From Phoronis australis (taxonomy: Eukaryota > Animalia > Phoronida): a stretch of DNA of 64,000 nt. Below are positions 5,421-59,314 of this stretch, piece by piece; the first letter of the stretch is position 1; each line of letters opens with the position of its first letter. The stretch spans positions 62,001 to 126,000 of the forward strand of contig NMRA01000222.1 in assembly GCA_002633005.1 (NCBI GenBank), in the 5' to 3' direction. A program made the position numbers and the translations under genes. The notes under the pieces were generated by a model that was given only the letters and a program-made list of their open reading frames with translations, did no database searches and was not told the origin of the DNA.

Positions 5421-6019
5421 TATGTACTGTAACTTCGCGGGAGATTCTTGTGACATATCAACTCACATGAAAACGTTCGCGCATTTTGGGTAATTCCAGA
5501 TCCATCCTGAAACAGTGCATTTTGCCGCTCTCTCGTAAAACTCAGTGTCTAACAGCCCTGTTGGGGGTGATTCACTAAATCATGTACCAGTGACTCTCCC
5601 CAAGATCCATTTAAAATCTGGTTTAGTCACAGGCTCTGTTGTTGTAGCTGTCTGTCCTGCTCTTCCTATGGAGGGTGTGACCTTGTTGCTTTGTTATGAT
5701 TTGGCTGGAAACTGTGTATTTCCCGAGAATGAGAGTTCGGCGATGTTTTTGAGAACTTGTTTTGTGAATAGCCCTTGTTAAATGAGCCTGATTTGGAGAA
5801 TGAGTACATTTTCCCTGCTTGTGCTGTTACTAGGTCCATGACAAAAATTGTGCTACTCTGTTAAAGGATGAAATAGTTGAGTTACCTGGTACAGGTTCCT
5901 TCACAGATTGTCTCAGATGTTGGGACATTAATGGGATAGATATTGGCGCGCATACTTTGGATAGTCAGCGGTTTTTTAGGGAACAGAGCATTGATCCTGA
6001 GTTAATGCAATTTTTTTAA

Positions 6020-7250
6020 CGTGTTTTGCCTAGTGACGAAGCTGAGAAGGTTTCGGAATGTTATTGTTTTGCAAGTAGTGGTGTTCTGATGCGCAAGTGG
6101 CGACCTCTTGATGCTAAACCAGAAGATAAGTGGTGTGTCGCCAACCAGGTTGTAGTTCCTAAGGTTTATAGGTCTGAGGTTATCCGTCTCGCTCATGATG
6201 GCCCTATGGGGGGGGGGGCATTTAGGCGTAAATAAGACTTACAGTAAGATTCGGAAACATTTCTATTGGCCCAACTTGAAGAAGGATGTTTCAATTTTCT
6301 GCAAGACCTGTGACATTTGTCAATGATGTTGGTAAGCCTAATCAGCATGTACCAGTGGGCCCTTTAAAGCCTAATCAGCATGTACCGGCGGCTCCTTTAA
6401 AGCCTATTCAAGCTTTTCAGGAACCATTTATAAGGGTTCTTACAGACTGCGTTGGTCCATTGCCTAGAACCAAAACCGAGAATTCGTATTTACTGACAGT
6501 TATGTGTGCGTCAACACGTTTCGTAGAGGCTATTCCCCTAAGGAATATTAAGGCTAAGACTGTAGTGAAGGCTCTGCTTAAATTCTTCACTTATGTTGGT
6601 TTCTCGGAGTGTACACAATCTGACCAGGGCTCAAATTTTTGTCAAAGTTGCTTCGACAGGTTACCTTGCAGTTGGGTATTACCCACGTGACGTCGTCGGC
6701 TTACCATCCTCAGTCACAAGGGTTACAGGGTTACTGGAGAGGTATCATCAAACTTTGAGGAACATGTTTCGCAGTTACTGTCTTGAAACCAATAGAGATT
6801 GCGATGAAGGTGTACCCTTCCTGCTGTTTGCTAGCCGGAAGGCAGTGCAGGAATCATTAGGGTATAGTCCGTTAGGGGCGCTTTGTAGTTGTTGAAAGAG
6901 AAATGGTTATCAGAGGATAAACCTCTCAATTTATTTGCTCGATTATGTTTCCGGTTTCAAAGAGACACTGTATGCAGCATGCAAGGTTGTGAGAGAGAAT
7001 TTGGTGGTGTCGCAGGGTAAGATAAAATAAGGATGTCAGAGTACGAGAATTTGAGCCCGGTGATCAGGTATTTGTGTTACTACCCGTTGTGGGCAACCCA
7101 CTTCAATCTAGGTATTCCGGGCCTTATGTGATTCAGCGGAAAGTTTCCGATCTAGATTATGTTACTAAAACCCCAGATCGCAAGAGGAATTTGCGTCTGT
7201 GTCATGTAAATACATGTATGTTGAAGCCGTATTTTGTTCGGAGCGGTTCC
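6020..7250 (+). pseudogene. Integrase remnant (HHCC, DDE core, GPY/F module) located upstream of RT
   Basis: VVPKVYRSEVIRLAHD; TDCVGPLPRTKTENSYLLTVMCASTRFVEAIPLRNIKAKTV; SDQGSNF; ERYHQTL; PLQSRYSGPY..CHVN; in-frame 33-bp duplication KPNQHVPVGPL/KPNQHVPAAPL at 6334-6399. Confidence 0.9.
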
Positions 7251-7489
7251 GACAGATCTGTTTCGATTTGTTCTGCTGCCAGTAGCACATACATGTAGTC
7301 AGTCTGCCCATTAAAACCAGCGTATGTACTGAGGATGGTATAGTTGGTTGTAAACCTACAGTAGGTTGAATAATTCTGCCATTCTTTTGACATTGATCTG
7401 AAGCTTAAACATCTGTCACGTGAGTAAAGACAAATCTTGATAGAGATTTTGTTTGAGTTTAAGGGTGTGTTTCCAGTAGTTTGAGTTTA

Positions 7490-32214: not shown

Positions 32215-33680
32215 CCTTGACCCAGTCTACAGAAGCTCGACACGACCTGCCAACGTCACAAATGTCGTTCCCGGCAGAGTGTAATGGTCTTGTCTGCTCT
32301 TCAATGAATGGCATATTCAAGTTTTTTGGGAGAGTGCGAGAAACGCACCGATATGTAATTTCTTCAGTAAATATACAGTTTGAAAAAAACTGTTAACTAA
32401 AAGTATATCAACGTTACACGGAGTATGTTGTAAACGAGTATACATCAGAAAACGTGATAAAATGTGAAATTATGTGCATTCACGTTAACGTACTATCTCC
32501 CAAAGTTAAGTAGAACAGGGCTATTGGTTGTCGCTCGTGGAACTATTTCCGTGACGATAGCAACAAAGCCCACAATCCGCTATTTCAGATCATTTTCTTA
32601 CGCCAGTTTCTGTTTTTAACCACCAGACTTGAGCCATAGTAGATTCACGCGTGGGTAAGTCTTATTGCAAAGTCACTCAACGACGTAATACGATTATGAA
32701 ATGTTTAAAAAGCACAGATACATCTACCTCAGGTTGTGGGGGTCGAGGGGGACGTGGGTCGAGAGGGTCGTGGGAGTTTTAGAACGATTCCGTTTTTGGT
32801 TGTCAAGTGCCAATTTAAATGCTTGTTGTAAGTGCTCAGTAAGTTAAACATGAAATACAAACAGTGACTGAAAGTTTTTGATTGGCAGTAGAAATATTGT
32901 TTAGGGTAAAGAATTATCTCAGTTGTTTACAGTTTCTTTGCTCTCAAGACTGGTTGGTTGTATGTCATCAGACTCTTAGTGCAGACGATAATTTCAGCGA
33001 CACCAGCGCTATAGCAGTAGAACATCCTGTTCATGGAAATATGGCTGTTCTAGTCACAGGCAGACGAATTTCTCGATGAACCACATAAGTTAGACACTAC
33101 AACGTTGTTGAGCATAGGCTACCAGCTTCACCTGTCCCAAATCCAAATAAAATCTGTTTGCACCTCCCTCATACAGGTATAACATAAACCGCAAAACCTT
33201 ATTTTCCCCAAATCCCATCACATTGTCTGTGAGTGGTGAATTGGCGACAGAATTTCTTAAACAATCAACACACTCTGAATTCAAGGAGGCTGATGGCACC
33301 ACCACTAGAAAATGAAAACAAGTAAATATCAACAAAGGTATATTTTGCAATATCCAGCTTTGTATTTCATCTTTAACAAAAACTTTTAGTTTGTTTTCAA
33401 ATAAAAAACATTTCAAATCAGGCATAAAGAATGCACTAGTTACTCTATGTACATGCATTATATTTTTCAAAACAGGACTTACTAAAATCAGTAACAAAGA
33501 AAACCCTAAAGTGAAAGCCTTATTCTTTATCCATTGATGACGTAGTAGGCTTCTGTAAATGTTTATTTTTGTACTAGATAATTTTTACACCATTCCACAT
33601 TTTATGCCATATAGTGTGTGTGCTAAACTGTTGAACTATTGGAGAAGTCAGTAATCGTTTATACGGGAAAAGCACTCTGT

Positions 33681-33898
33681 CTAATACTTTGTGAGGTGAT
33701 TCACCTTTCTCTCGGGTGCATTTTTTTCTTCCCACACCATGTCACCAGCAATATATGTGGCTTGAACATTCAGATCCTCATCAAGCATGATAAAGTCAGC
33801 ATCAGTTGTGTAGTCTAACGTTCCCTTGGAATGGGTGATACCCAGTAACTGAGCAGGATGCAGTGATGCGGCCTCTAGAGCTTCCACAATGGAACAGT
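33681..33898 (-). CDS. AMDHD2: N-acetylglucosamine-6-phosphate deacetylase, coding exon 8 (last)
   Basis: ttgtag|AC TGT: (H)[53 protein letters not shown]; AATAAA on the minus strand at ~33562. Confidence 0.95.
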
Positions 33899-34118
33899 CT
33901 ACAAATAGGGGTGACCAGTTGAAAACTGAACAACTGCACAGCAAACTTAGAGAAAACTTACAAAGTTACACTCGAATCATGTGCTACGATTGGTTAAGTT
34001 GAATTCTAAATTGTGTTTGGAGGTTAAGTCAAGTTGTGCAATATTAGAGCATCCAAAAATAAAAGTCACTTGTTGGTAACACCTAATTTTCAATGCAATC
34101 CAGTTTCTAAGTACTTAC

Positions 34119-34165
34119 GGGCTTGTTTTTTATAATGCCTGACACACGAAATTAATGTTGCAACA
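34119..34165 (-). CDS. AMDHD2: AMDHD2 coding exon 7
   Basis: tttttcag|T GTT GCA..GCC C|gtaagt; (S)VATLISCVRHYKKQA; phases 2/1 match the flanking exons. Confidence 0.88.
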
Positions 34166-35301
34166 CTGAAAAATAAGACATCAAAAATCATTTAAAACTA
34201 ACAGTTCACCAACAAAGCAGAGAATGCTGAACATATCTGAGGCTATAAGCTACAACGTCAAAGGTGAAATCAATGTAACAGTTATTGATGTTAGGTTTAG
34301 TAGAAGTACAAGTCCCCGTTTATCTTGGAGATACACTGCTCCGGGTTAATTACTCTTACCTGGGAAGTACGAAAGGGTAAATCTCCACTTATTTCACACA
34401 TGTATCATAATTGCCAAAGTTGTCATTTTTTCACTTTTCAAAGGCCTATTACGCTACAATGGAGACTCTACCTAATGTTATTTCATGGCATCAACACAGT
34501 ACAGACTGTGTTATTAATGGTCTTATTGTTCATCTTTAGCTTTGTGGACAAACTTGACTGAGTAAAATTTTATCAGTCCACCATCTTGTGTACAAAATAA
34601 GTGAAAAATTAAAAAGCTGCTATTTAGTTGGAGGCGCAACATTGTAATGGACAGCAGCCAATCACATTGCAGGCATCAGTAATACTAAACCTGTTAAAAG
34701 CTGACAGGCGAGCATGTCATAAAAAGACTAGCTCTTGATTTAGATCACTTAGTGTTATTAAAGAGTTCTCAAACTCTTCCTTTCTCAGAATATAAAACAG
34801 CTCATTTAAAATGACGTATTCTTATTAAAATGACATAGGGACAACCTTCATTTTTGAGCTTCAAAAGTGGTGCCTCTTACATCAATATAGGCAGACCTAC
34901 CCAAAGGTGCAAAAAGCAAGGCTCTCTATATCAATGTTGAGGGACCCGCGTTTGGTAGTCTTTCCCCGCTTTATACTCTATTGACATCAGGATCAAAAAT
35001 GAATTTTTGCTGACGTCATTAATAAAAGGTCATTCAAAATGATAACCTGTTAAAAGTGAGTCCAGTGACAACAGTATGTTATTAACACTAGTCTCAAGCT
35101 GTAGCAAAATTCAGTGCTCCCCAAGCCAATAAATCACTTCTTTTCCAATCAAATAATAACTTCAGATTGGCGACATTGATTACAGGAGTCTAAATCAAAA
35201 TTAATTTTTTTTGTAATGGCCTCACAGCAGCTTGAAGTCACATCCTTGAGAGGTCATTCGTTTCTAGCAACAACATTATGACTTCTTGCCTCAGTGCATA
35301 C

Positions 35302-35431
35302 CTTCCACACAACACACTAGTGCCGTGAACAACCGCTTTAAGGCCATTGACCTCCACTAGAGTGTCACCAAGTCTGTGGACACCGTCAGGTAGACCCATT
35401 GCTTGGATGGCGTCAGTGATCAGAACAATAC
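35302..35431 (-). CDS. AMDHD2: AMDHD2 coding exon 6 (catalytic Asp in ITDA)
   Basis: GIVLITDAIQAMGLPDGVHRLGDTLVEVNGLKAVVHGTSVLCG; cag| and |gtatgc. Confidence 0.95.
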
Positions 35432-35686
35432 CTGGTGCGAAACGACACGAAAACAACATCAAGCAACAAATTAATACTTAGTTCAGCTGGAATGTTTACA
35501 AATTTAGCTGTACGCACATCTCACTGTTGGCTCCATTGTCAACAAATATCCAGCATAAGTGTCATGTTTTCATTTTATCAAAACTAAACGAAGAAAATTG
35601 ATTTTAGAAATTTTACTAGTCTAAAACTACTGTGCTAATCAAAAAACAAAATGTCAAAGATAACAAATTTATTATGTACCTGTTAA

Positions 35687-36576
35687 AGGCAAAGCCAACC
35701 TTATTTCAGGTCATTTTTAGCAAAAATTAGGTTCGTTGATTATCCCGGACATATTTTTCATTTAATTACAGCTTTTTGTAATTTAAACAATTACTCGAAC
35801 TTTACTCCGGAAGTGACGTTAAGGGAGGCAAGTATTTCGTGCCAATTTCTTTTCATATAGTCTTACTGTGAGAGCTGCCGAGTCAGTCATTGTTCTACCT
35901 CTGTTGTGATTAGTTTGGTCGTCGTTTGCTTTTGTTTACAAGTCAGTCAACATGCCACACTGTAGCTGCATACCGAAATGTACTCATTATTGTCTCACAG
36001 ACAGAGGAACAATTGTTCCACTTGTCCGAGTGTCCCGCGACACACTCCCATTGGACAGTGACCTAAGCAAACTAACTGCTTACATCCCGCCGTGCGACTC
36101 CCTCGCCACACACCTGGCACCTTCTAAATAGCTCCATTACTTTAGAAAAGTCCTCTACTTATCAAAATTTGGCTCAATGATCTATTCATTAGACGACGAA
36201 GTGTCCTCGTCACTGGGTGTCGAACGGGGCCTGTATTCACTCCCTCTACTCAACATCGCAGCAGGGCTGCTTACAGGCTCTGGGCGATAATGAGTACATC
36301 CCGGTACGCAGCAACAATGTGGCATGTTGACTGACTCGTAAACAAAAGCAAGCGACGACTGAACTTGTCACAGCCAAGGAATAACAATAACTGACACTCA
36401 CACCACATGAAAAGAAATTGGCGCGAAATTCTTGCCTCCCAAAACGTCACTTCTGAAGTAAAGGACGAATAATTAATTAAATTAGGAAAAGCTGCAATCA
36501 AGTGAAAAATATGTCTGGGATAATGAAAGAACCTTATTTTTGCTAGAAATGGCATGAAAAAAGGTTGCCTTTCCCT
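35687..36576. mobile_element. Kolobok-like non-autonomous DNA transposon with ~310-bp TIRs and TTAA TSD, in an AMDHD2 intron
   Basis: ttaa|aggcaaagccaacc..tttagcaaaaat... mirrored by ...atttttgctaga..aggttgcctttccct|ttaa; arms ~35687-35995 and ~36283-36576. Confidence 0.8.
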
Positions 36577-36939
36577 TTAAAGAAATGCATAATAATGTTG
36601 GAAAATAACAGAGAGTATTTGTTATGTATCTTAAAAGAAATTACAAAGTTAGTTGTATATCTTACTCAGTTTAATTTTGTTGTAAGTTGAGCGTGGTTAT
36701 CAATTAAATGTAACTTTTTGATCACATCGTGTGAACTGTAAATGAACTCCAACAAAAGTGACTAATCATCAAGTGATGGCACACGTTTATCACAGTTTAC
36801 AGAAACAACACCAGATATGCAGACACAGCAAAACGACACATCTAAGTATGAAAGGGAACCACCAGTTAGCTGCATGAAGACTAGAAAGTTTTGTACCACT
36901 CTAACAACAATGGAAACGCAATAGATGAGGTGACGTTAC

Positions 36940-37084
36940 CATTGGGGTGTACTCTATGTGCGATACGCAGGGCAGCAGGATGGGTGTGGATTCCGTCAGC
37001 AATCATGCCATAGAAGACAGTGCGGTCCTTGGGGATTCTCTCACTGGTCAGCAAGCCTACTAGGCCGGGATCACGGTGATGGAA
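36940..37084 (-). CDS. AMDHD2: AMDHD2 coding exon 5
   Basis: [48 protein letters not shown]; tag| and |gtaacg; phases 0/1. Confidence 0.96.
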
Positions 37085-37932
37085 CTAAACAGTGTGACAT
37101 AGTCTTAAGTATAGCCAAACTCAGCGTGAATCTTTATCAGTGGTAGGTTACAAAACAGCAAATATTTATCAGAGGTAAACAGTGTAAATAATGCAGCTAC
37201 TCGTGACTCACTGTTCTGAAACACTGGAAGTTTCAACAACTACCCCGCTAAACAATTACTGACTTTCACCAAATTTAATATTTAATTTTTTTTAGACCCA
37301 AAAAATGTGATAATGATCAAGCCGAAAAAATATGATAACAGCATTACCATGCGAGGGATCAATATTCCAATTGATTGACATCCTACTTTACCTGTCCAAG
37401 TCATAGAATAATACAATCTAGCTGAATATAATGAATAATATCTTGTAATCAAAGTATAGGAAACAAACGACTGTGTCTTGATCTGATTGCAACAAATAGG
37501 TCAAACACTAAACATCTACTAGCTGACATTACCCAAAATTAATATCCTTTTCCAACAAGCACACTCTTATTTTCACAAAGAGTGACACAATGAAAAAAAT
37601 ATGAAGAACTTTAAACACATTTCAACACAAAATCCTGGAAGACAAGCAGATTTAAAATGCAACCTAATGTAAAAAAAGATTATGTTAAACATTCTTTTGA
37701 TCAGGAACCTATCGACAAATGATCAAATTAAGGAATTCAAAGGTAATTTTTTCCATGTTGGCATAATGTTCACACCATAATATTTTACTGTGTTTCAAAG
37801 TTACTGATATATGACTCTGGGCCCCGCTTATTAGGAAAATGTTTTGTGTCCCCTCCTTGCCTAGAAAGGAAATTTTTACTGTTATCATCTGGTTTGATAC
37901 TTCAGTTTAAACCCACCACATAACAGTAATAA

Positions 37933-38106
37933 ACAAACATTTTAAAGTCTGGTCAGCATGCCACCTGTTAGCTACATCACATGACCTCAATGAACCTAAG
38001 TCTGAAAAGATTTGTGCCCCCGACTGAATTTTTTTCAGACTTATGTTCATTAGGTCACATGATGTGGCCAACAAGTGATGTTGCAGACCAGACTTAAAAT
38101 GTTTGT
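37933..38106. repeat. ~174-bp intronic hairpin
   Basis: acaaacattttaaagtctggtc..catcacatgacct.aatgaac.taagtctgaaaa pairs with ttttcagactta.gttcattaggtca..tgatg..gaccagacttaaaatgtttgt. Confidence 0.85.
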
Positions 38107-39143
38107 GATCAATATTTACATATTTACAGCAGGATCATTGTTACAGTAATAAAATCATTTGATGCGAGGTACTTCCCCAAACCGCTCATCACACAAGCAC
38201 AAAAGCAACACAGAAACGTCTACTGGACAAATATATTATAACCAATGACAAAACTCTTACGATTTGGGACAGAATGCCAGAAAGTAGACACCAGTAGGGC
38301 CTATAGAGTAAAAATCTCACCCACTTTGGACTAAAATAATTCCCCAAAATTGGCCTTTTTTCATTTTTCAAAGGCTCCGAATGTTGTTGAGAATGTCCAA
38401 GGTTTCCTGAAACATTGTCTGATGGAAGCTATAGTATATGTGTTTTAACTCATAAAAACTGATACAGCCTTATTGTGCTCATTGTTCGTGAAAAAAAATA
38501 AATAAAATTTAGTCACTCCTCCACTATATTGTGTCTTGAATGAGTGAGATGTTGCCATTGGCGATAATGCTATGTTGTTGCACTGACAGTTTGCTTCAAG
38601 TTTGTTAATTTTTTTCATCACCAATTTTACAATTAAAGACCACCTTGAATGGTAACACATTCAAATTTTGTAGCTGCAATAGGCTTTGACTGTCCATCAC
38701 TCTTTGCAATAATGTCCTAAATTGCCAAATTTAATTAACGGTTAGGCTCATTGACTTAGTATACATGCCATGTACATTTGTCTACACCACCGCAAGAATC
38801 CTGACATGGTGTTCTGTTCAAAACCATATTCAATGTAACTACTTTCAGCCTATCTTTTGTTCTGTATTCTAGTTGTGAATACAAAGCTATTCTATGGTGC
38901 CAAATGGATACTTCATTTATCATGAGTGATTAAATATCAGTGACTTGTAGCTAAAGAATTGCTCAGACTATACACAATCATATAGGTGTCCAAATACATC
39001 TAAAATCATAACAAAAATCTGTTCAAGGCGGAGTTTAAAGTGTTGGTGCAGGCAAACACTACCAGAGCCTTGACCTGGGGTTAGTAAAGGTAGTTGGGTA
39101 GCTTACCTCTACCCATATAGTGCAGATAACAAGAAGGACTCAC

Positions 39144-39232
39144 TGGAAGCATAGCGTTAAAGAGATGAGTAATGAAGGTGGCTCCAGCAGAAGCAGCACT
39201 GGTTCCCTGAGTTAAGTTGCCTGTTGAATGCC
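39144..39232 (-). CDS. AMDHD2: AMDHD2 coding exon 4b (alternative; both metal-ligand His)
   Basis: ccaacag|GG CAT..CTT CCA|gtgagt; GHSTGNLTQGTSAASAGATFITHLFNAMLP; 89 nt, phase 1/0. Confidence 0.95.
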
Positions 39233-40151
39233 CTGTTGGAAAAAGAATTACATTGTGTCTAATGGACACACACACACGTTATCAAGATGAGGTCCAAAAT
39301 TGGCCTGGGTAAGACTAGATACTCTTCGTTAACTACATAAAAAATAGCAGTGGAGTTATCCTACATAACATTCAAATAACTTTTCATACACATATCATCT
39401 ATTTTCTGTGATATAAAAAGTGTCTACAGTAATTATTTTGATCTCCAAAAGCCTCGTTCCAAACACATTTTTGACCAACTCTTCTCCAGAAGCTTCCAGA
39501 CAATTAGAGCATACCCGTAGATCATCTTATTTCATAATTAAAGGTGTACCCAAACCAAAAAGAAATTAGTCGGAACTCACATCTTCAAAACAAGAGAATT
39601 TGGAGTTGGGGATCGCATTAAACTATTGACAAAACAATAACTTTTTACATAGTTACCATAAAATATCTCCAATTTAGAACACGCTATGGCCGACAAGTGA
39701 AATTTCATTTACCGGTAATCGTTTTTTTTTTTCATGCAACGTATGTAGCACCTATTAATTACATGCATCTCCATGGTCAAGTTTTGTACCACAGCAACCG
39801 TCAGCCAAAGTTTTAAAAAATTGTGGGCATTCATATTTGAAACATTTGAAAAGTATAAAAGGGTCTATTTTGGCAATTAGTTTTGTCCAAAATTGGTGAG
39901 ATTTTGTTGCATCTGGACATCATTGTTTCTGCCAAATAATCCACTGGAGTTATTAACTTTGAAAGTTATGAAACTTGTTCATGACAATATTTTGATGACA
40001 TTATCGCCGGTAGCACTTCTGGTTGTTAAGAGAGACAGAAAGAAAATAGCGAGGCAAATAATATCCACCGCAGCTTTGAAACAAAAAGCTAAAGCCCACG
40101 CAGCCAGTCATCTTAGCAGCTACAAGCAGTCATTGCACGCCTCTAACTCAC

Positions 40152-40240
40152 AGGTAGCATGGCATTAAACAGGTGAGTGATACTACAAGCTCCACAGTTT
40201 ACAGTTTGTTCGCCTGTGGTCAGGTTGCTCTCGGAATGGC
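40152..40240 (-). CDS. AMDHD2: AMDHD2 coding exon 4a (alternative; both metal-ligand His)
   Basis: ttgtacag|GC CAT..CTA CCT|gtgagt; GHSESNLTTGEQTVNCGACSITHLFNAMLP; 89 nt, phase 1/0. Confidence 0.92.
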
Positions 40241-42187
40241 CTGTACAAATGGATCACAAAATTAAAAAATGTGACTTAATTAGTGGATATTGAATGCATA
40301 CCAATAACGCTTAGTAACTGCTACATGAGTGTTATTCCGTCGGATGTAAATCCAACATGGTGACCTACCACATGTAGAACTAATAATTCAATTTACAGCT
40401 TTGAATAGAATAACAATTAATTTCTATTTTAATGAATTGACCAGCACTTGAATCGACAAAAGCAATTTTATTTGCTGCTTGAAAACAGTTATTGTCATTA
40501 AACATATCACCAAGGGGATAAGCGAACATTGTGTCAATTCAAGACATGGATTGTGATGTGATTCGAAATTTATTTTTCAATAGCACCAGATGATCTCCAA
40601 TCCTGTTACCATAAAACTCCCAAATAATACAAGACAGTAATAATAAAACTGCCACAGTTGTATGCATGAGTAAAACAAAATTACATAACTATTACTAATA
40701 TTTATTGTAAGTATGAACTTGTAATACTTTGAATTGTCAATTTCCACCACTTAATTCAGCTTATAATGACTGCATTCTAACAGTCTGAGACAAGACAGTA
40801 TGAAAAAGAAGGAAACAAAATCACCAACTGAAGACAAGATGAACCTGTGACGAGATGTTGCACACATGTAGATAATGTTAAGTGCACACAATGAAATGTC
40901 ATGCTGGAGAATCCTCAGAAATTATGAGAAAGAACTCAATAGAAATGAAAACAGTCATTGAATAGGGTTATTTTTTATAAAGCACGTCCATAATGATAGG
41001 CCAAAAAGCATTTTGAAGTTGGTTTTGGTCTTTGCCCGACTCACTTTAAGATCTACGCTCACTGACTAAAAATGCCCACAGATATCAACTTTTGTCAAAA
41101 TGTCATATTTTTGGAAAGGCACAAAGTAAGGGCAAGAACGTTTGAAACGCCATGATGTTCTAAACGGTGAATAAAAAAAGAAATCCTACATCAAGTTTGC
41201 TCGTCTCTGGTGAATTTGCTTTTTTTAAATGTGGACAAAACACAGACAAGAACCAACCATGTTTTTGGCCGTGCAGACAAATAATAGTATGAAAAACCAA
41301 AACCTGGCTAAAATTTATGAAAATTAATGGAAGCAGACAAAAAGTGGCTGTTGAGAAGCCGAAAATGCTACACAACATATTCATGGAAGAAATTTTGTGA
41401 CACCAGAATGTTTAGAAAATTGATTTTCATGTTTAGTGATTACAAAGGTGATGCATCAAATTAATGCATTCAATAAGCAAAACATTCACCTGTCCATTAA
41501 ATTGAAAATTCATTGAAAGAAATGTTCGGCAGTACAGATTACTCAGTTCTTGCAGCAGCGACAAGGTATTTGTTGTAAATAAGCCGGACATTCATTGTCT
41601 GGACAGTGAAAATATAACCAGTATATCAAGAATGATTGGTTTTCAAAAACTATATAATGTCACCCAAATTTTGACACTTCATTTCCATATTTGGAATAAT
41701 TTTCAAATTAGAGTAAAATGGTTTACTTCAGGGTTCTTGCCATAAATTTGACATTTAACAGAAAGCAACGAAATCACTCCTTCTTGTTTTTTGACTTATT
41801 TGTTACGTTCACTGCAATTTATAATTATATGTCAAGACATTATATGAAGCCATAAATTATTATTGTGCTCATATTTAGGGAGACTGCATATGACTGAAAA
41901 TGTCCAAAACTATGCAGCAAGATTTTCCTTGGTATTCACAGTTTAGTTCAAACCATGCTGTTAATAGAGACATGAGTTGGGAATTTTGAGCTGTAAGACG
42001 TAAAACTGAGATACCGTGCTTTTGTAAAAGGTGTTTAAATTTTAATGAGGAAAGACATGCACAGATATTTTTTTGTATGAGGGTAAGACATCAGTGTGTA
42101 AGGTTTTGGTAAAAAAGGGCTTTCATGATGAGTCAAAAATTGCATCAAAATAACATCTAATATTAATATTAGTGCCATTATCACCAG

Positions 42188-42335
42188 GGCCCAGTTGCAT
42201 AGAAGTTATGCGCCGTATAGGAATGACGTCGCATTATCACGCGCCACGTTGTTACTGTTGAACAATGCACCTGACGTCATGCAACAATCAAACACTTATC
42301 CGGCAGATAATTTTGAAGCTTTGTGCAATCTAGCC
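42188..42335. mobile_element. Short PIF/Harbinger-like MITE
   Basis: cag|ggcccagttgcata...tgtgcaatctagcc|cag: imperfect TIR with a 3-bp CAG duplication. Confidence 0.45.
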
Positions 42336-42596
42336 CAGATTTAAAACCGTTAGTTTTGCCATCTGCTTCAGCTGGCTATAAAGTGATTTGTATGCCTATA
42401 ATACAGGCTGGGTTCATTGTATTTTTAAAAGTATAACTTGGAATTGCTTATGAACATGTCACTATATAAATATTATGTTCTCACTCTATTTGTGCTGTCA
42501 TTAGAAAACTTGCATGCTATAGTTATCGCCGTGCATCTGAATGCGTGTTACAGTTATCCCCGTGCATCTGTGACTGATGAGATCAGAGAAGCTTAC

Positions 42597-42806
42597 CCAC
42601 AGAAACAATGACTCCTCTCTTGACTAGTTCTTGAGTGACTTCATCAGCATTTTTTAGCTCAGGTGCGAGGGTGACAATAACGACATCTTTTAGCGAGCCA
42701 TAAACATCCACCAAGTCATCGAAGCCATTGTCAAACTTGCGAACAAACTGGGGAGGGTGTGCACCCAGTTTGTCCTTGCTGATGAAAGGCCCCTCTAGGT
42801 GTATAC
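42597..42806 (-). CDS. AMDHD2: AMDHD2 coding exon 3 (HLEGPF metal-ligand Glu)
   Basis: GIHLEGPFISKDKLGAHPPQFVRKFDNGFDDLVDVYGSLKDVVIVTLAPELKNADEVTQELVKRGVIVSV; |gtaagc. Confidence 0.96.
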
Positions 42807-43239
42807 CTTCCCATAGAAAAAAATTATTAGCAAACAGTCATGCAATTTTAAGAAGCAACAATATAGTTTAGCTATAAAACTCCCTTCCATTACAAAAACA
42901 AATTTTAACTTACAGTAGACCACATGCCATATGAAATTGTTCTGTAGTCTAATTGGAGATGATTCCAGGGCTTCTTGACCCTCATTGGTCACCTTTTGAG
43001 AAATTACGATGATTCAAAGCTTTCCATGAGATATTGGATTATCGCATCCAGGTACTCACCTTGAAAAAAATTAGGATTTGACTAATTTTCAGGAGTTGCG
43101 AGATTTCCTCAGTGGATGGTTGGTTACTACAGATACTGGATTATTGCAAACAGTTTGATACAACAACAGAATTGCAAGACTTAGACAGACAGCTGTCACA
43201 AAACACTTCACATTCAAAAAATTGATATTAAAATCCTAC

Positions 43240-43434
43240 CCAACACCTCAGCACCATGTTTTCCACCAGGTCTTTTGTACAACTTGGGAAGAGCCTGTTT
43301 GTAGTATTCACAACAAGACGTAATGACTGTGGGAACGTATGAGGTAACACCATGTGCCAACAGTCCCTTACTGACTAGGTTAACACCTTCAATGAGCTTA
43401 TCTTCAGATGATGAGAAATCTACACCGAACGCAC
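43240..43434 (-). CDS. AMDHD2: AMDHD2 coding exon 2
   Basis: GAFGVDFSSSEDKLIEGVNLVSKGLLAHGVTSYVPTVITS..KRPGGKHGAEVL; phases 1/1. Confidence 0.95.
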
Positions 43435-44379
43435 CTTTAAAGGGATCACATTTCAGTTATTGCATAAGACAGGTACTGGAGACATACTGGGTAGTGACAA
43501 GAAAATGGGAGATATTCGAGGGAAATTTCTTGGAGAATTCAGATTTAATCCACAGCATTACTGCCATTTTTAGATGCATTGTGGGGTAGTTCTTGACTCG
43601 TATACATCACAGATAACATGCAGACGTGTAGCCCGATTCATAATTAATTGACTTCAGGGTGATTGTAGGATGCAAGTCTCAAGAATCTTTTGTGCAAGAC
43701 TTGCTGTTTTATGTAACTATATTTGATGCAGTTTGAGACTCGTTTACACTCTTTCATTGTTCTATGAAGGTTGGTTTGTCGTACTCGTACCATAACACAA
43801 TGCAGTGGTCCTGTGCTTTCAATTATGTGTACACGCAAGTGACAAGCGTTGATTACGTCATACTGTTTTTTACCAAGTTGTCAGTGACGTCACCAGATAT
43901 TTACGAGCCAGCAACCATACACATTGCATTTTAAAAATGTTAACTGTGCTGTACATGAAATCCCTCAAATCCGTACAAGGGATTACAGAAATTGTTGGTG
44001 AAACAGCAGCATGGAAATGTTCAAATCACTACACAATGTACGGTAACCCTGTAGAAAAGTAAAATTACGCAATCCTCAAAGTATTTAAGCAATTCTGAGA
44101 GTGTATTGTCCAACAATCTATGTCTTCAGTGGCTTCACTTTTTGACGATCGCTGTAACTTCAACAGAAACGTTGAATAATGGCTCCTTGAAAGCTATGGT
44201 CTCAGCATGGTACATTTATTTAGGAGGTGATTATTTTGATACCATAATACATGTAGTGCCTATGTGAGACCAATGGGCAAGACCCTTTCCATGTAGGCTA
44301 TATGAAATGAAATAATAATGTGCCTTGATCTTATTCATTACACAACAATTAATAAAACTTATTTTAAAAATTGAATTAC

Positions 44380-44587
44380 CATTTATCTGTGTGTCAATTA
44401 AACCTGGAGCTAAAATTGCATTATTGCAGAATATCTGAACATCTGCTCCCTTTTGTTCATCATAAAATAGCTTTTCAGGATCAATTATTTTTCCATTCTT
44501 CACCCATAAATCCTCTCGGATGATGTTGTGGTCTCTTAGTATACGGCAGTTTTTGTACTGGTAAATGATGTCCCCGGACTTTGGCAT
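44380..44587 (-). CDS. AMDHD2: AMDHD2 coding exon 1 (ATG at 44587; acceptor at 44616); full CDS 1242 nt = 413 aa
   Basis: MPKSGDIIYQYKNCRILRDHNIIREDLWVKNGKIIDPEKLFYDE..ILAPGLIDTQIN|G; has the QxN motif of single-metal NagA enzymes. Confidence 0.95.
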
Positions 44588-45046
44588 CTTAACGCAGAAC
44601 CATTTAAAATGCTGACCTGGAAAATGAAAAAACAAGATGGAACGAAGAATTTTATTGAAAGATATACAAGATTACAAAAAGGTTGATTCAGTTAGTTAAT
44701 TCTTAACATGAATGTGTAGAAAACAGAAAATCTCCCAATTGCCTACAGCTGTCACGCGGGAGGAACTGTAATTACCTTTCAAATGACCCATTAACTTTCA
44801 CAAAGTCTGCACACAACACAAAAAACAAAATCAAGACCTTTAGTGTAATTAGCCGGACAGCTGCATTAAGTCTAACATCAAAATACAGCTAGGATTCCCA
44901 GAGTGACAACTTCACATAGACCTCAAAATTTCACACGTCCTGGGTAGTTATGCTAGTCACATCACCATGAAAGTGGTACCAACATGCCTAAAGCAGTAAG
45001 TGGATGGGCCGGTGAATTCAAAATCTGGGGGTCAGCCAACACTCAC

Positions 45047-45130
45047 CTTGCTCGTTACAGCAGTGAAGAAGAATAAATGTTGTTCTCTCAAGTCTTTATC
45101 CAGCTTTTGTAAAAGTCCATGAATTACTTA
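45047..45130 (-). other. AMDHD2: Putative non-coding 5' exon of AMDHD2 (5' boundary undefined)
   Basis: Strong donor AAG|gtgagt at 45047/45046 lies upstream of the strong acceptor (ttttttcattttccag) of the ATG exon. Confidence 0.4.
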
Positions 45131-45537
45131 CAGTAGGCTCATGATAAACATTAGTTTAATTTTTTGTGACATCTTTCGGGAGATGAGGACAACTACAAAG
45201 CAAAATTTGCTCAGGAATATATGGTTTGTTGGAATAACCTTCATGTGAAATCAATTTTGACAATTAGTTTGTATGCAACCTTGCGGACAAAGAACGGCTG
45301 ATTGAAAAATCAGTAAGAAAAGAAATTGGCCAATAGGTGATGCTCATGACGCTGAAAGTACAGACACAAATTATCCTGCATCAAACTTAGAAGCCGAAAA
45401 ACTGTAGAATGTTAGCACTGGCAACTAATAGGGTTTACTCAAGCAAAAGTGTAGTTAAATTTGTGTCACTTACCATTTCTCCCATTTTTTATACTACCCA
45501 CATTGGTCCAAAGTTGTTTGTTTATCAGTTTATACAG

Positions 45538-45760
45538 CAGGGCTCGACGCTATTAAAATCGCTAGGTCGCATTTTGCGACCTAGCCAAAATCCCAGGTCG
45601 CATTTTCAAAATCCAGCTCGCATTCGTAAATGCCAGGTCGCAAAATTTTCCCGCCATTTTTATGTGTTTTGTGAACTTTTATCACGTGTTAAGCAGTGGC
45701 CCGAAACTTTCTTCGGCGAATCCGGGAATTTACAAAAGTGGCCGAAAGTGTTAGCCAATG
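45538..45760 (+). mobile_element. One end of a hAT-like DNA transposon
   Basis: Begins cagggctcgac with repeated subterminal g(g/c)tcgca motifs (x4, one forming the palindrome ggtcgcattttgcgacc); partner end not found. Confidence 0.45.
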
Positions 45761-46278
45761 AAACGCATCAAAAATCGATTCTGCATATCCCACGCGACTT
45801 GCTTACAAGTCATTGGGAGGGCTGTTCTCGGTACGTGTTCTTTTGAACTTGGATTTGGCAACAACCAAATAACGGTGGGATTTACAAGAGCTGCTTTGTA
45901 TTTGCCAGGTATCTGTTGANATGCTTTAACCAAAATTTTCAACATAAATGTTGAGTTCAGTACTGTGTTTTGCAATAAAAAAACAAGTGAACAATATTTT
46001 GATGACCAAGACGTGGGCCGAAACTGTTAAGCACCCAGCGTGTTCCATTTGTCTGCTGCGTTTTTCCTTTGGCCTAACAGATGTCGGTTAGTGCCTGGGA
46101 CAAATAGATAGATTGCATAAACAATCCCTGGGTTGCTTTTTGTTCCGTCTGAAGAAAATTTAATTTCGAAAATATCTTCTGAAAATGAACAAAAAAGTGC
46201 ATTAGTAAAATCAACAAGTTTTTAAGTGGTCTCAAAAAAACAGTCGGTAAATGCATTAATTTTAGTCTCAGTTCTTCC

Positions 46279-46409
46279 ATGCGTATTTCTCCCGAGAGGT
46301 TAGTACCTAACGTGCAGACGAGCACTCCAAATTGGAACGCTAAGTCCCGCGTGGCAGCGCTGCACGCGAAACAAGATGGCGGACGACCTTTGGAGACTGA
46401 CGACGAGAG
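46279..46409 (+). CDS. Exon 1 of a putative small unassigned protein (ATG 46279; alternative ATG 46376 in another frame)
   Basis: Open frame MRISPERLVPNVQTSTPNWNAKSRVAALHAKQDGGRPLETDDE, donor AG|gtaatc, CpG-rich context containing caagatggcgg. Confidence 0.5.
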
Positions 46410-47478
46410 GTAATCGGACTATATACGTCCAAGTTTTTACCTGACTTTTCCCTTTCTTCTTGTTTACTAACTCAAAGAACGGAAGTCAGCTGAATAATCT
46501 AGGTCACGACGCTATCCAATGTAAGTTCTTTTAAGCGATTTCTGCTGCTCTGTGCCACAAATCCCCGTATATAGGTCAGGTCTGTTGACGTAGGCCTACT
46601 GAGCTGCGTGTTGTTTTCTAAATGATGCCGCAATAAAATGACTATCATGCCATTAAAACGCAAGTATCCTGGAAGATACTCCACGGCACAGCTTCTCCGT
46701 TTTCCCCTCTTGTTTGGGGGTCTTTTGACAATTTATGCTGTGGGATTTCATTACCGGTAAGTTGGGTAGAAATCTAGAAAATAATAAGTGTCTCCAGGGA
46801 CATGATGTACAGATTTTGAAGGTGTGTGGATGTAAATAATACAAGGTTCGGCTGTAATGCTGTTTAATTTTTTAGTAATAATCACATTATGTAGTGGATC
46901 GATGGGAAGTGTCCCAAGACATAATTACTGGGGGTATGCACAATTGAGCTCTCATTGTAGACAACTGTGCTAGTGATAGCCCTTGAAGTGGTATAAGATC
47001 TGTAGTTTATAATTAGGCAACACACTGTTGCATTAGTTTGGCAAATGCCGTTAGTTTAGGCTGAAAGAAAATAATGCTTTGCATCATACTCAATAACTGA
47101 CAGGGAAAAAACTGCTCGATGAGAGGCTGGTAACATATTAGTTGGATGCATGTCCCTCTCAACCCCCAAACCCCTGTGGGTGAGCTACCCCAGGTCAACT
47201 AATTTTTTTAAGAACAAACAGCAATTAATGACTCATAAACTCAACAGATAAGATTCAACCAGTAACAGCTAATAGAACTCGCAAAAGTCGGTTCCAAGCA
47301 GACTGCAGGATTTCATTAGAGTGTGAGGATTGGCAATCCAACTTACTGAAAACATTCGGGTTACCTGAAGAGGTTAACAAAGTATCCACTCAACTTTGTG
47401 GAAGTTAGCAAAAATCCAACTAATGCATGCCCCTATTGTCCAAGTTTTGTTGCCTGCTGTAATAATTTTTCTTTCCAG

Positions 47479-47608
47479 GCATTTGTTTTTCCAAGATGAG
47501 TTGAGTGCAGTACGCGAGAAAAACAGAGAAGAACGTCAAAGGATGGAAAATGTTATGGTTGAAGCAGAAAAGAAACTGGACCCACACAAGATTACCAGGA
47601 TCAAGTGA
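47479..47608 (+). CDS. Exon 2 of the putative small coiled-coil protein
   Basis: Strong acceptor tttttctttccag|G; (R)HLFFQDELSAVREKNREERQRMENVMVEAEKKLDPHKITRIK*; phase 2 matches exon 1. Confidence 0.55.
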
Positions 47609-50600
47609 CCTGACCAGGCATTCAAGCATTGTATTAACATTGCAGCTTTGATGAGTTCATGATACATGGGTAGGACGATGCCAGCTGTTAGGGGGGTTGT
47701 ATCGTGCTAGCTGGACTTGCTAATTTCACATTGTCTGCAATTGTTCCACTTACAGGATTTGTTCATTTTATTTAGGCTAAGTGCAGATCAAGTTAATATT
47801 TTTGTTTGAACTTTTTGATTGAATGTGTAAAGCAGACTGCTTCTTCTGGAGTTGGTCATTTCATTTCAAGATGTGGCACCTAAAAGGAGACCCGCCAGTC
47901 TGATGTCTACTTTGCTGTTAATGGTTGAAATTTCCATTTGGAATTCATATGGTGCTTTGTGAACTGGTCGTTCTCTATTCAGTGACAACATTGATAAGCA
48001 TTGTCTATCCTGATGTCAGGTAGACCAAGAGTTTGGAGAGCTAGTCTTCTGAGATTATGAAAAACTTTTGGCTCTAATGAATGAAAGCTTGGGTCAGTTT
48101 CATGAAAAATGAGACTGCATGAAGTCAGAAATTTGGTTTGTTTGGTTTGAAAAAAAAAATTTAATCTCACTTTAAATTAGCAAAGTACTGTAGTGTCTGA
48201 GAATTATACAGTTTAACTGTTAAGTTAGTTTCAGTAGGTGAATTACTATTTCTAGACGGTAATGCCCTCATGATTATCTCGAATTATGAAGTGGAAGTGC
48301 AACACCAAATTTCTGTCTTGTGAATGGAATCATGAACGTCAGCCATGTACACGTACATTTAACTTAGTTCAACATCTTCAGGATAGATACAATACCATAC
48401 ATGCTATCGTGCTTAGAAGTTTTTGCCCCTCTGATGGAGATTGCATGCCCTTACTTTTGCGTAGAAGTCGTCATTTGGGAAGTAATCGCTCATCACGATC
48501 CAGAAGGCAAATACTTATAAGTGAGGTAGCAAATTTTGTGGCGATTCTTTGCTTATTTAGCTCGCAATATGGCCAACAAGTCAAATTTTCCTTAAAAATA
48601 AAAATAAAAATGTTGTCTATTACGAGGATTTTTGCACCGAGTAGATGCCATAAAACAACATTTTGTAAAAGTTTCCAGTATTTGTAGCAAAGTAAACAGC
48701 ATTCAAAACCCGGCAATTATTTTTGTACGAAATGAGTAGGGAATTAACGGTACAGTGATTGACCATTGTGATAATGGAACATGTACAGTAGATGTTAAAG
48801 ATTTGCATGTGATTTGTGTTTAAGCTTATAGTGGAACCTATGTGCTTGTTGACTGTTCTGCAGTGAATTTAGTAAAGGATTTACTCCAATATGTTTGATA
48901 ACAATAAGTAATATTTTAAATTCTAACACTCGACACATATCCAGTTTTCAAAGATAAAACTTCAATTTATGTACAACTTTGACAAGATTAAGGAAATGAA
49001 GGAAATTAGCGTCAACTGGGCCAGAAAATCATTGTATTAGTTGAAAATTCCTGCTCAATTTTGCCAATTTTCCACAAGATTATGTCTAATTTCTTAAATT
49101 TCCATATAACAATGTCCATCATGGCTTTGTCAAAACTAGAAAGATTTCCCAAGCGCATAGTCACCCAAGAGTTCATTTGTCATTCAAGTCTATAACAGAA
49201 CAATTTGCATGTACTAAAAATACATATGCTACTCAATTAGTTTTGCTAGAAGTGTTCACAAATAAACACTTATCAATCACATTGCCACAGCGATGACCCA
49301 TACTAGCAAGACTTTTCTATCTTGCTAGTGCAGGAAAATCACAATGTGCATGCTGGGCTCACAAGACTTATCACTATATCTGTGCACATTAGCGACCAAA
49401 CTGGGGAGCAAGAACAACTTAATGCACAGGTTTCAGTGCTGTGATACAATATATGCAAACATTGACATAAATCTACTTGGTAAATGTTAGTCTGTTTTTC
49501 TTAAACAGGACCAGCATTTTCCAAAGGCCGGTTTTGCATCTTGTACAGTACAAAACTACCATGCTACCAGTGTTGTAAATAAAAATTCAACTTTATTTTG
49601 TTCATAAAGTCTGCTGATTTGAAGAACATTTTGCTAAGGTGCCATCACATTTTAGAACACTTTGTGAAACTAATTGATTCTTGTTACTGAAGTGGCTGTA
49701 CAATGCTTGTGTGTATTACAAGAAAACAAGACAGAAAATCAGAACATAATGATTTAAACTACTTGTTTATTTTATGAAGTACGTCAGAGTCACGGATTAG
49801 AGTACAACTTTTTACAAAGAGACGGAATAAAAAAATCGCTGAAATTGCAGTAGTTTTTTATAGAAAACCTTAAAATGAAAACTTTGAATCTAATACATCA
49901 TTAACAGCCAGAATTCAAATTTGCAAGACAGTGACAATAGAACAATTTACTAACCTTGAAAATCTTCTAAGTATATGCTTTTTGGGTCATGTAGCAAGAA
50001 AAAAAACAGCCCTCAAAGCAACAGAAGAGCAGATATAAAACTAATGTGCTGTTTCATAAATTTGTTCGACTTTGTAGTTAATGCTGCAGACTACTTCTGA
50101 GGTTAAAACACCTTCGCCGTATCTTTGCCCTTCTAGGCATAATCATTCCCTTGTTTTTTTGATCTCTCAGCAGAATTGTCATCTCCATTTTTTCATCTGC
50201 CATTAGAGTAGCATGAACCTGGACACTGCTACAGGTCCCTCTGTTGCTGCTTTGTGGGAAAGGAGCAGCAGTTCAGATGAATCCAATAAATAAGTACTCT
50301 CTTGTTTCTAGCCCGATCTCCTGCACCTTTACTGTGCATACTCTTCCTAAACTTTTAATAACAACTGCTTCAATAGTGATGTCCACCAATACTTTCAATA
50401 TGATGAAGTTCGGTGTTACAAGAAACAAAATGAATTAAAATGTGGAGAGAGGAATCTGCAAAAAATCAAGGAAGCATGGCCTTTAAGGGTAAATATAAAC
50501 GTCGTTTACTAGTTACAAGATTTAGGACCTTGAAGGCATGATTTTACAAACCAAATTTGAACTCTGCAACAGCTTCATCTTTACAAGATAAAAAATATTT

Positions 50601-58685: not shown

Positions 58686-59314
58686 NNNNNNNNNNNNNNN
58701 NNNNNNNNNNNNNNNNNNNNNNNNNNNNNNNNNNNNNNNNNNNNNNNNNNNNNNNNNNNNNNNNNNNNNNNNNNNNNNNNNNNNNNNNNNNNNNNNNNNN
58801 NNNNNNNNNNNNNNNNNNNNNNNNNNNNNNNNNNNNNNNNNNNNNNNNNNNNNNNNNNNNNNNNNNNNNNNNNNNNNNNNNNNNNNNNNNNNNNNNNNNN
58901 NNNNNNNNNNNNNNNNNNNNNNNNNNNNNNNNNNNNNNNNNNNNNNNNNNNNNNNNNNNNNNNNNNNNNNNNNNNNNNNNNNNNNNNNNNNNNNNNNNNN
59001 NNNNNNNNNNNNNNNNNNNNNNNNNNNNNNNNNNNNNNNNNNNNNNNNNNNNNNNNNNNNNNNNNNNNNNNNNNNNNNNNNNNNNNNNNNNNNNNNNNNN
59101 NNNNNNNNNNNNNNNNNNNNNNNNNNNNNNNNNNNNNNNNNNNNNNNNNNNNNNNNNNNNNNNNNNNNNNNNNNNNNNNNNNNNNNNNNNNNNNNNNNNN
59201 NNNNNNNNNNNNNNNNNNNNNNNNNNNNNNNNNNNNNNNNNNNNNNNNNNNNNNNNNNNNNNNNNNNNNNNNNNNNNNNNNNNNNNNNNNNNNNNNNNNN
59301 NNNNNNNNNNNNNN
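58686..59314. other. Assembly gap (629 N)
   Basis: Run of n. Confidence 1.

What the first reader, a model, noticed from the sequence alone, without database searches (positions are those of the whole stretch)
39144..40240. Tandem mutually exclusive exons swap the metal-binding core of AMDHD2 (GlcNAc-6-P deacetylase)
Seen: two 89-nt exons, 4a (40152-40240, GHSESNLTTGEQTVNCGACSITHLFNAMLP) and 4b (39144-39232, GHSTGNLTQGTSAASAGATFITHLFNAMLP). Both have a cag acceptor, a gtgagt donor and phase 1/0. They share 19/30 residues, and 13 of those 19 use different synonymous codons, which points to an old duplication with both copies under purifying selection. Including both reads GGC ATT CAA CAG GCA ACT TAA (stop); skipping both frameshifts; so exactly one must be used. 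Established: the His of GHS and the His of THLFNAM are NagA metal ligands (E. coli H195/H216), and AMDHD2 opposes the hexosamine pathway. Inference: two isoenzymes from one gene, PKM1/M2-style, tuning GlcNAc salvage. I know of no report of this for AMDHD2 but could not search.
Basis: partly seen in the sequence, partly recalled or inferred. Interest (0 to 1): 0.88.

Follow-up and report, generated by a model that had tools for sequence, protein, structure and literature searches.

The report
Swappable twin exons in sugar-salvage enzyme
An invertebrate gene for the enzyme that strips acetate from GlcNAc-6-phosphate (AMDHD2) carries two old, diverged copies of one 89-base exon, RNA reads show either copy but not both spliced in at ratios that differ between samples, and because the metal-binding residues are identical the two versions are likely both active enzymes that differ only in fine tuning.

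Summary
AMDHD2 (minus strand, 9 exons) has two 89-nt phase-1/0 exons at 40152-40240 (5a) and 39144-39232 (5b). They share 19/30 residues and synonymous sites are saturated. RNA-seq gives junction reads for both isoforms in 3 of 3 raw-read runs (upstream 38 vs 67 reads, downstream 30 vs 73). No both-in or both-out joint is listed. The 5a share runs from 14% to 45-64% between samples. The same exon is single-copy in 7 of 7 other intron-bearing loci that span it, and no such isoform pair appears in 20 protein clusters, so the duplication looks lineage-restricted; no close relative was found. The title overreaches: His211, His232, Asn235, Ala236 and Gly226 (human numbers) are identical in both copies. 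The 11 differences fall in the loop after His211, the following helix and the next strand start. Each copy lost different conserved residues (5a: A222T, F229S; 5b: E220T, V223A). Best reading: two active, differently tuned isoenzymes, with NMD as a likely backstop; the function is untested. This is a new member of a known kind (PKM, KHK, fly CRMP). No report for AMDHD2 turned up in ten literature searches.

The parts
46441..46481 (-). AMDHD2 exon 1 (5' non-coding; start approximate)
   Evidence: joint to exon 2 in 32/27/16 reads; read ends pile at 46462-46481
44380..44616 (-). exon 2, ATG at 44587
   Evidence: joints, translation
43240..43434 (-). exon 3
   Evidence: joints 25/23/26 and 20/23/31 reads
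42597..42806 (-). exon 4, constitutive upstream exon; carries the Glu143-equivalent zinc ligand; phase-1 donor
   Evidence: matches human AMDHD2 140-208, E 9e-16; joints to both 5a and 5b
   Evidence: E4>5a 6/14/18 reads, 5a>E6 6/10/14 reads; maps to human 211-239
39233..40151 (-). 919-nt intron between the twin exons, U2-type ends; long enough to be spliced, never seen spliced out
   Evidence: no 5a>5b joint among all 8 joints listed; site sequences
   Evidence: E4>5b 38/19/10 reads, 5b>E6 37/19/17 reads (36/19/17); maps to human 211-239
36940..37084 (-). exon 6, constitutive downstream exon; His242/Arg243, His272 and Ile280 equivalents
   Evidence: joints from both 5a and 5b; motifs present
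35302..35431 (-). exon 7; catalytic Asp294 equivalent
   Evidence: joint 38/19/36 reads; motif
34119..34165 (-). exon 8 (47 nt)
   Evidence: joints 42/39/36 and 41/42/46 reads
33452..33898 (-). exon 9 with stop codon and 3' UTR (3' end approximate)
   Evidence: Amidohydro_1 E 3.7e-8; read coverage

Best explanation
An old tandem duplication of one ancestral 89-nt exon of AMDHD2 gives two exons that are spliced one-or-the-other into 413-residue proteins with identical metal ligands, which are likely both active GlcNAc-6-phosphate deacetylases whose stability, rate or partner surface is likely tuned by the swapped loop and helix. Shown: both single-exon mRNAs exist, neither aberrant form is listed, ratios differ between samples, both copies keep every invariant residue. 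Inferred: the choice is made by ordinary regulated splice-site competition, and NMD likely removes the frameshifted both-in and both-out messages. Inferred: after duplication each copy drifted or adapted at different conserved positions (5a lost Gln218, Ala222, Phe229; 5b lost Glu220, Val223), which would repack the helix behind the two zinc histidines. Because human AMDHD2 is an obligate dimer with shared active sites, co-expression would give aa, ab and bb dimers, so shifting the exon ratio would adjust how much GlcNAc-6-P is pulled out of the UDP-GlcNAc supply.
For: Junction reads for both forms in 3 of 3 raw-read runs, all on the gene's strand; Logan contigs of a fourth run from another study also hold E4>5a, 5a>E6 and E4>5b. 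No 5a>5b or E4>E6 joint among all 8 joints listed at a threshold of 3 reads, against 105 upstream and 103 downstream productive reads. 5a share 14/42/64% upstream (chi-square p 5e-5) and 14/34/45% downstream (p 0.011). All 11 columns invariant in 77 mostly animal homologs are kept in both copies, against 8 of 19 variable columns identical (Fisher p 0.0016). Flanking introns share no similarity (p 0.30, 0.85). The copies are 63% identical to each other, less than the 70-78% mean of this block among 15 animal lineages, while the rest of the protein is not unusually diverged (0.574 against 0.559-0.617). Differences map to loop 213-214, helix 216-224, position 225 and strand start 228-229 (model of a fish ortholog, pLDDT 95). 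Ligands and obligate dimer: PMC8970586 passages. NMD dependence in 14 of 19 non-3n clusters in C. elegans: PMC4165533 passages.
Against: No activity, stability or proteomic data. No close relative was found (best whole-protein identity about 63%), so conservation of both copies across species is untested. Counted by distinct read starts, the downstream ratio difference is not significant across the three runs (p 0.099; upstream p 3e-4). Sample identity is coded and X4 carries variants absent from X2 and X3, so genotype rather than tissue could explain the ratios. Only 18-19% of each run was read, and up to 2 aberrant reads per run could be hidden by the listing threshold. Burial and contacts of the changed residues were not computed; the model is of a fish ortholog, not of this protein. 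X1 contigs hold no 5b>E6 joint and one contig reads from 5b into the intron.
Confidence: 0.6

Rival explanations
1. Functionally equivalent twins. Both exons are used and both must stay intact because each supplies a large share of the enzyme, but the two proteins behave alike; ratio differences reflect genotype or noise.
For: All catalytic and ligand residues are identical. Most differing positions are variable across the family. Shared use alone explains purifying selection. X4 differs in genotype from X2 and X3.
Against: Retention for long enough to saturate synonymous sites and erase flank similarity is hard to explain if either copy could be lost for free. Changes at positions that are nearly fixed elsewhere: Thr222 0 of 77, Ser229 0 of 77, Thr220 0 of 77, Ala223 2 of 77.
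Confidence: 0.25
2. Dimmer switch. Isoform 5a is a weakened, unstable or non-catalytic form; including it lowers deacetylase activity, possibly by poisoning heterodimers, in the way fly CRMP exon 9b makes a non-enzymatic product.
For: 5a is the more derived copy: mean block identity 0.66, below all 15 lineage representatives; profile score 40.4 bits against 44.0 for 5b and 43-61 for 15 other loci; rank 14 from the bottom of 140. It loses a large hydrophobic residue at 229 (Ser in 2 of 140). The region is mutation-sensitive in the human enzyme (G226E insoluble).
Against: 5a keeps both zinc histidines, both phosphate contacts and all 11 invariant columns, unlike CRMP where the zinc His is replaced by Gly. 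It is the major upstream junction in X4 (18 vs 10 reads).
Confidence: 0.13
3. Artefact: two alleles or two paralogous genes assembled in tandem.
For: The species is polymorphic (many reads at 90-95% identity); no independent genome was available.
Against: The copies are 46% different at DNA level while exonic allele differences are a few single bases. Both copies splice to the same exons 4 and 6 in each run. Sense-strand reads cover the intron bins between 5a and 5b.
Confidence: 0.02

Closest known systems
Homologous mutually exclusive exons from tandem exon duplication in metabolic enzymes (PKM M1/M2, KHK)
   Same: Tandem homologous internal exons of equal length, one used per mRNA, fold preserved, variable residues near a functional site (PMC7954323 abstract and section 9; PMC8373072 abstract).
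   Different: AMDHD2 is not in the human catalogue of 236 events (0 hits; PKM and KHK found as controls). Those events are mostly over 425 million years old and widely shared; this one was seen in one species only. No allosteric or oligomer switch is shown here.
Drosophila CRMP/dihydropyrimidinase exons 9a/9b (a metal-dependent hydrolase; same amidohydrolase superfamily, recalled)
   Same: Mutually exclusive exons that include a zinc-binding histidine position of a metabolic hydrolase (PMC7954323 section 9; PMC8652244 passage).
   Different: In CRMP the zinc His becomes Gly and one product loses pyrimidine catabolism and is neuron-specific. Here both ligand histidines are kept in both copies. 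The primary paper (Morris 2012) was not held, so this is second-hand.
Human AMDHD2 / bacterial NagA (PDB 7NUT, 7NUU)
   Same: Orthologous enzyme; Glu143, His211, His232, Asn235, Ala236, His242/Arg243, His272, Ile280 and Asp294 equivalents are all present.
   Different: Other animals examined have one copy of this exon and annotated isoforms do not differ in this block.
NMD-backed non-3n mutually exclusive exons of C. elegans
   Same: Exon length not a multiple of three, so double inclusion and double skipping frameshift (PMC4165533 passages).
   Different: NMD dependence was tested there with smg-2 mutants; here it is only inferred from stop positions.

Membership tests
Homologous mutually exclusive exons (tandem exon duplication) | Adjacent homologous exons of equal length and phase | tested here: met
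   89 nt each, phase 1/0, 19/30 residues identical, tblastn E 2e-8
Homologous mutually exclusive exons (tandem exon duplication) | Each exon is spliced to both flanking constitutive exons in mRNA | tested here: met
   all four joints in 3 of 3 raw-read runs
Homologous mutually exclusive exons (tandem exon duplication) | Double inclusion and double skipping absent or rare in mature mRNA | tested here: met
   neither joint among all 8 listed; threshold 3 reads per run, so up to 2 per run could be hidden
Homologous mutually exclusive exons (tandem exon duplication) | Both copies conserved in related species | tested here: inconclusive
   no relative above about 63% protein identity was found; distant loci are single-copy
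AMDHD2/NagA GlcNAc-6-P deacetylases | Metal ligands Glu143, His211, His232 and catalytic Asp294 (human numbers) | tested here: met
   present in both isoforms (residues from PMC8970586)
AMDHD2/NagA GlcNAc-6-P deacetylases | Substrate and dimer residues Asn235, Ala236, His242, Arg243, His272, Ile280 | tested here: met
AMDHD2/NagA GlcNAc-6-P deacetylases | Deacetylase activity on GlcNAc-6-P as a dimer | not testable with these tools
   needs purified protein
PKM1/M2-type regulated isoenzyme switch | Isoform ratio differs by tissue or state | tested here: inconclusive
   ratios differ between three samples but tissue, stage and genotype cannot be separated
PKM1/M2-type regulated isoenzyme switch | Isoforms differ in kinetics, allostery or oligomer state | not testable with these tools
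   no biochemical data
CRMP-type ligand-swapping exons | A metal ligand differs between the two exons | tested here: not met
   both histidines identical
Sterically enforced exclusive exons | Intervening intron too short to splice | tested here: not met
   intron is 919 nt
U2/U12-incompatible exclusive exons | A U12-type splice site on one side | tested here: not met
   all 8 donors listed are GT sites of U2 type; none has the U12 consensus (consensus recalled)
Docking-site/selector exclusive exons (Dscam, Ate1 type) | Competing RNA pairings of one site with sequences at each exon, conserved with covariation | tested here: inconclusive
   no shared docking site stood out in 12 flank-by-intron scans; a stem around 5a reaches p about 0.03 but constitutive exons 6 and 8 do likewise (4 of 21 tests at p 0.05 or less); fold z -0.22; no relatives for covariation

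The most novel reading that the evidence does not exclude
A splicing-controlled valve on the hexosamine pathway: this animal lineage switches AMDHD2 between two isoenzymes with clearly different catalytic efficiency, substrate range or assembly (homo- and heterodimers), so that tissues needing UDP-GlcNAc for chitin or glycans pick one exon and salvaging tissues pick the other. It would be the first isoenzyme switch known in the NagA/AMDHD2 family.
Probability: 0.25. Interest if true: 0.72.

Novelty: new member of a known kind. Interest (0 to 1): 0.46.

Why it matters
AMDHD2 is the counter-enzyme that limits UDP-GlcNAc supply in mammalian stem cells (PMC8970586) and its loss darkens fly cuticle (PMC13261557). 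No regulated isoform of its catalytic barrel turned up in the searches made here. This locus gives a natural, RNA-confirmed pair of variants that differ at 11 positions between the two zinc histidines, a ready test of how second-shell residues tune an amidohydrolase and of whether hexosamine flux can be set by splicing. The limits: the class of event is well known, the ligands do not change, and it was seen in one unplaced invertebrate only.

Tried and rejected
No whole genome is held for this window, so paralogs elsewhere in the genome and synteny were not checked. Close relatives: three protein searches and the 50%-cluster search gave nothing above about 63% identity. A quick tree (the careful search did not finish) puts the gene weakly among spiralians on a long branch with no well-supported set around it, so the animal group is not named. 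The run index listed no holder on record as RNA; the RNA evidence comes from laying the added raw-read runs. X1 contig depths are whole-contig means and were not used for ratios. Third copy in the window: none. Duplicates of other exons: none for the 6 coding exons tested; the 47-nt exon 8 was not tested. RNA structure: flank scans, inverted repeats (84 pairs, two touching the acceptors of 5a and 5b but pairing with different places) and shuffles gave nothing beyond chance. Rfam: 0 matches in 33000-47000. Isoform pairs in other animals: 20 clusters, 127 members, 101 with the block, at most 3 differences within a cluster; of 376 stored protein pairs with near-identical flanks, 2 differ at 4 block positions and both are between different fish species; at most 15 members per cluster were listed, so this is a weak negative. 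A weak CSL zinc-finger hit (E 0.085) and ferredoxin-like CxxC hits for 5a (E 1 or more) were rejected as chance. Earlier scan findings: three look-ups, nothing. No complex prediction was run. The spliced proteins themselves were not folded; a fish ortholog was used for secondary structure. Two papers were not held; the full event lists behind PMC7954323 and the fly MXE catalogue were not seen and could bear on the novelty claim for insects.

Full report
1. Observation. The window holds an AMDHD2 gene on the minus strand. Exon 4 matches human AMDHD2 140-208 at E 9e-16. They share 19 of 30 residues, 13 of those 19 codons differ synonymously, nucleotide identity is 54%, pS is 0.95 and pN 0.30. 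Either exon alone gives a 413-residue frame. Both together stop after 240 residues and neither after 208, 390 and 308 nt before the last junction. A scan of the whole minus strand scores the two exons 157 and 148 and the next place 30. No other of the 6 tested coding exons has a twin.

2. RNA. One contig set (X1) and three raw RNA-seq runs with the same species label (X2-X4; one study; 18-19% of each run read) were laid on the gene. They define nine exons, the first non-coding, so the twins are 5a and 5b. Junction reads in X2/X3/X4: E4>5a 6/14/18, 5a>E6 6/10/14, E4>5b 38/19/10, 5b>E6 37/19/17. In the narrower, stricter lay all 8 joints were shown: the four productive ones and four strand-switch joints at intronic repeats. 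No 5a>5b and no E4>E6 joint appeared (a joint needs 3 reads from 2 starts in a run). No variant inside 5a or 5b is among the 40 of 46 rows shown, so mapping bias is unlikely. The 5a share is 14, 42, 64% upstream (chi-square p 5e-5) and 14, 34, 45% downstream (p 0.011); by distinct starts p is 3e-4 and 0.099. Sample labels are coded and X4 carries exonic variants absent from X2 and X3, so tissue, stage and genotype cannot be separated. X1 holds E4>5a, 5a>E6 and E4>5b but no 5b>E6 joint, and one 350-nt contig reads from 5b into the next intron.

3. What is swapped. Both exons align without gaps to human residues 211-239. In the human structure zinc is held by Glu143, His211 and His232, the sugar phosphate by Asn235, Ala236 and His242/Arg243 of the partner subunit, the enzyme is an obligate dimer, and G226E is insoluble (PMC8970586, passages). 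All of these that lie in the exon are identical in 5a and 5b, and those outside it are present. An AlphaFold model of a fish ortholog (75-row alignment, pLDDT 95; TM 0.94 to 7NUT) puts a helix at human 216-224 and a short strand at 229-230. The 11 differences are therefore 2 in the loop after His211, 6 in the helix, 1 just after it and 2 at the next strand start. In Klebsiella NagA the residue eight before the second histidine (human 224) makes a secondary inter-dimer salt bridge (PMC12409433, passages; the mapping is my inference), so the helix end can face partners.

4. Selection. Among 77 mostly animal homologs (P0289-P0365) 11 of the 30 columns are invariant; both copies keep all 11, while only 8 of the 19 variable columns are identical between them (Fisher p 0.0016). 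Each copy breaks different near-fixed positions. 5a has Thr222 (0 of 77; Ala 71) and Ser229 (0 of 77; Phe 64) but keeps Glu220 and Val223. 5b has Thr220 (0 of 77; Glu 74) and Ala223 (2 of 77; Val 62) but keeps Gln218, Ala222 and Phe229. In 140 of 150 diverse representatives with the block, Thr222 and Ala223 never occur. The copies are 63% identical to each other; 15 lineage representatives average 70-78% to one another in this block; 5a averages 66% and 5b 71% to them, while the rest of the protein (57%) lies within their range of 56-62%. The 300-nt flanks of the two exons share no detectable similarity. So the duplication is old, both copies are constrained, and 5a is the more derived.

5. 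Distribution. A metagenome scan with exon 6 gave 80 loci; 72 hold one copy of the block, 8 none, none two; many are intronless and uninformative. Eight have the same 89-nt exon with introns on both sides, so the exon boundaries are ancient. Seven of these span exon 4 to exon 6 and are single-copy under a profile search that finds both copies in the window (18 loci searched, 3 do not cover the exon). Twenty protein clusters from molluscs, arthropods and vertebrates show no isoform pair differing in this block. No relative above about 63% identity was found and the tree is unresolved, weakly spiralian. The duplication looks lineage-restricted but cannot be dated.

6. How exclusivity likely works. 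Steric exclusion is out (919-nt intron). U2/U12 incompatibility is out (all donors U2-type). A stem that would loop out 5a (40296-40323 with 40114-40140) reaches p about 0.03 against shuffles, but constitutive exons do the same and the region folds no better than shuffles (z -0.22). What remains is regulated competition with NMD as a filter. Both wrong products have early stops, and in C. elegans 14 of 19 non-3n clusters depend partly on NMD (PMC4165533, passages). This step is inferred, not shown.

7. Known systems and novelty. The locus meets the tested features of homologous mutually exclusive exons. It works like PKM or KHK in architecture, but a kinetic switch is untested. The nearest mechanistic analogue is fly CRMP, where exclusive exons swap a zinc histidine for glycine (PMC7954323 section 9; PMC8652244 passage); this locus fails that feature because the ligands are unchanged. 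AMDHD2 has 0 hits in the supplement listing 236 human events (controls found), 0 in the held supplements of PMC9741552 (15,271 characters) and PMC7954323 (36,517 characters), both weak tests. The fly gene has three isoforms whose nature the passages read do not describe (PMC13261557, first third and passages). A human retained-intron event is mentioned in PMC8590485 (passage). Ten full-text searches (listings only unless cited above) showed no report of duplicated or exclusive exons in AMDHD2 or NagA. Subscription journals and databases of invertebrate exclusive exons were not searchable.

8. Verdict. Real, expressed and mutually exclusive at the mRNA level (about 0.97). Two active, differently tuned isoenzymes is the best reading (0.6), ahead of equivalent twins (0.25) and a weakened 5a (0.13). 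New member of a known kind; interest 0.46, rising to about 0.72 if a regulated biochemical switch is shown.

Noticed in passing
window 46589-47610 (+): A head-to-head neighbour: opposite-strand transcripts begin at about 46589-46599, some 110 bases from the AMDHD2 start. Two candidate exons (46638-46758, 47479-47608) would give a protein of about 82 residues with a hydrophobic stretch and a charged tail; no Pfam match; the junction was not checked in RNA.
   Followed up: partly
window 38888-39233 (-): An X1 contig reads from exon 5b into the downstream intron; this frame stops 20 codons in. Only 1-3 reads deep in X2-X4. Probably partly spliced RNA.
   Followed up: partly
window 36940-42597: Sense-strand intron coverage is higher downstream of 5a (about 1-8) than in most of the intron upstream of it (about 0-3), as if the upstream intron is removed first.
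   Followed up: no
window 35535-36875, 37990-38100, 39686-39905, 42220-42293, 45369-46400: Intronic stretches with high read depth on both strands and many loose ends: dispersed repeats, some palindromic.
   Followed up: no
window 4500-7300 (+): Broken reading frames that look like Ty3/Gypsy retrotransposon gag and integrase remnants (resemblance recalled, not tested).
   Followed up: no
window 42807-42815 (-): The exon 4 acceptor is an AAG preceded by GGG, an unusual context, yet it is the site used (20/23/31 reads).
   Followed up: partly
proteins P0330, P0374, P0413, P0418: Oyster-cluster AMDHD2 forms of 572-590 residues with a long extra part; P0330 carries Pfam PF04500.
   Followed up: no
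protein P0015: A crow gene model repeats this block with identical sequence 119 residues later, likely an assembly or annotation artefact.
   Followed up: no
window 58686-59314: Assembly gap of 629 N.
   Followed up: no
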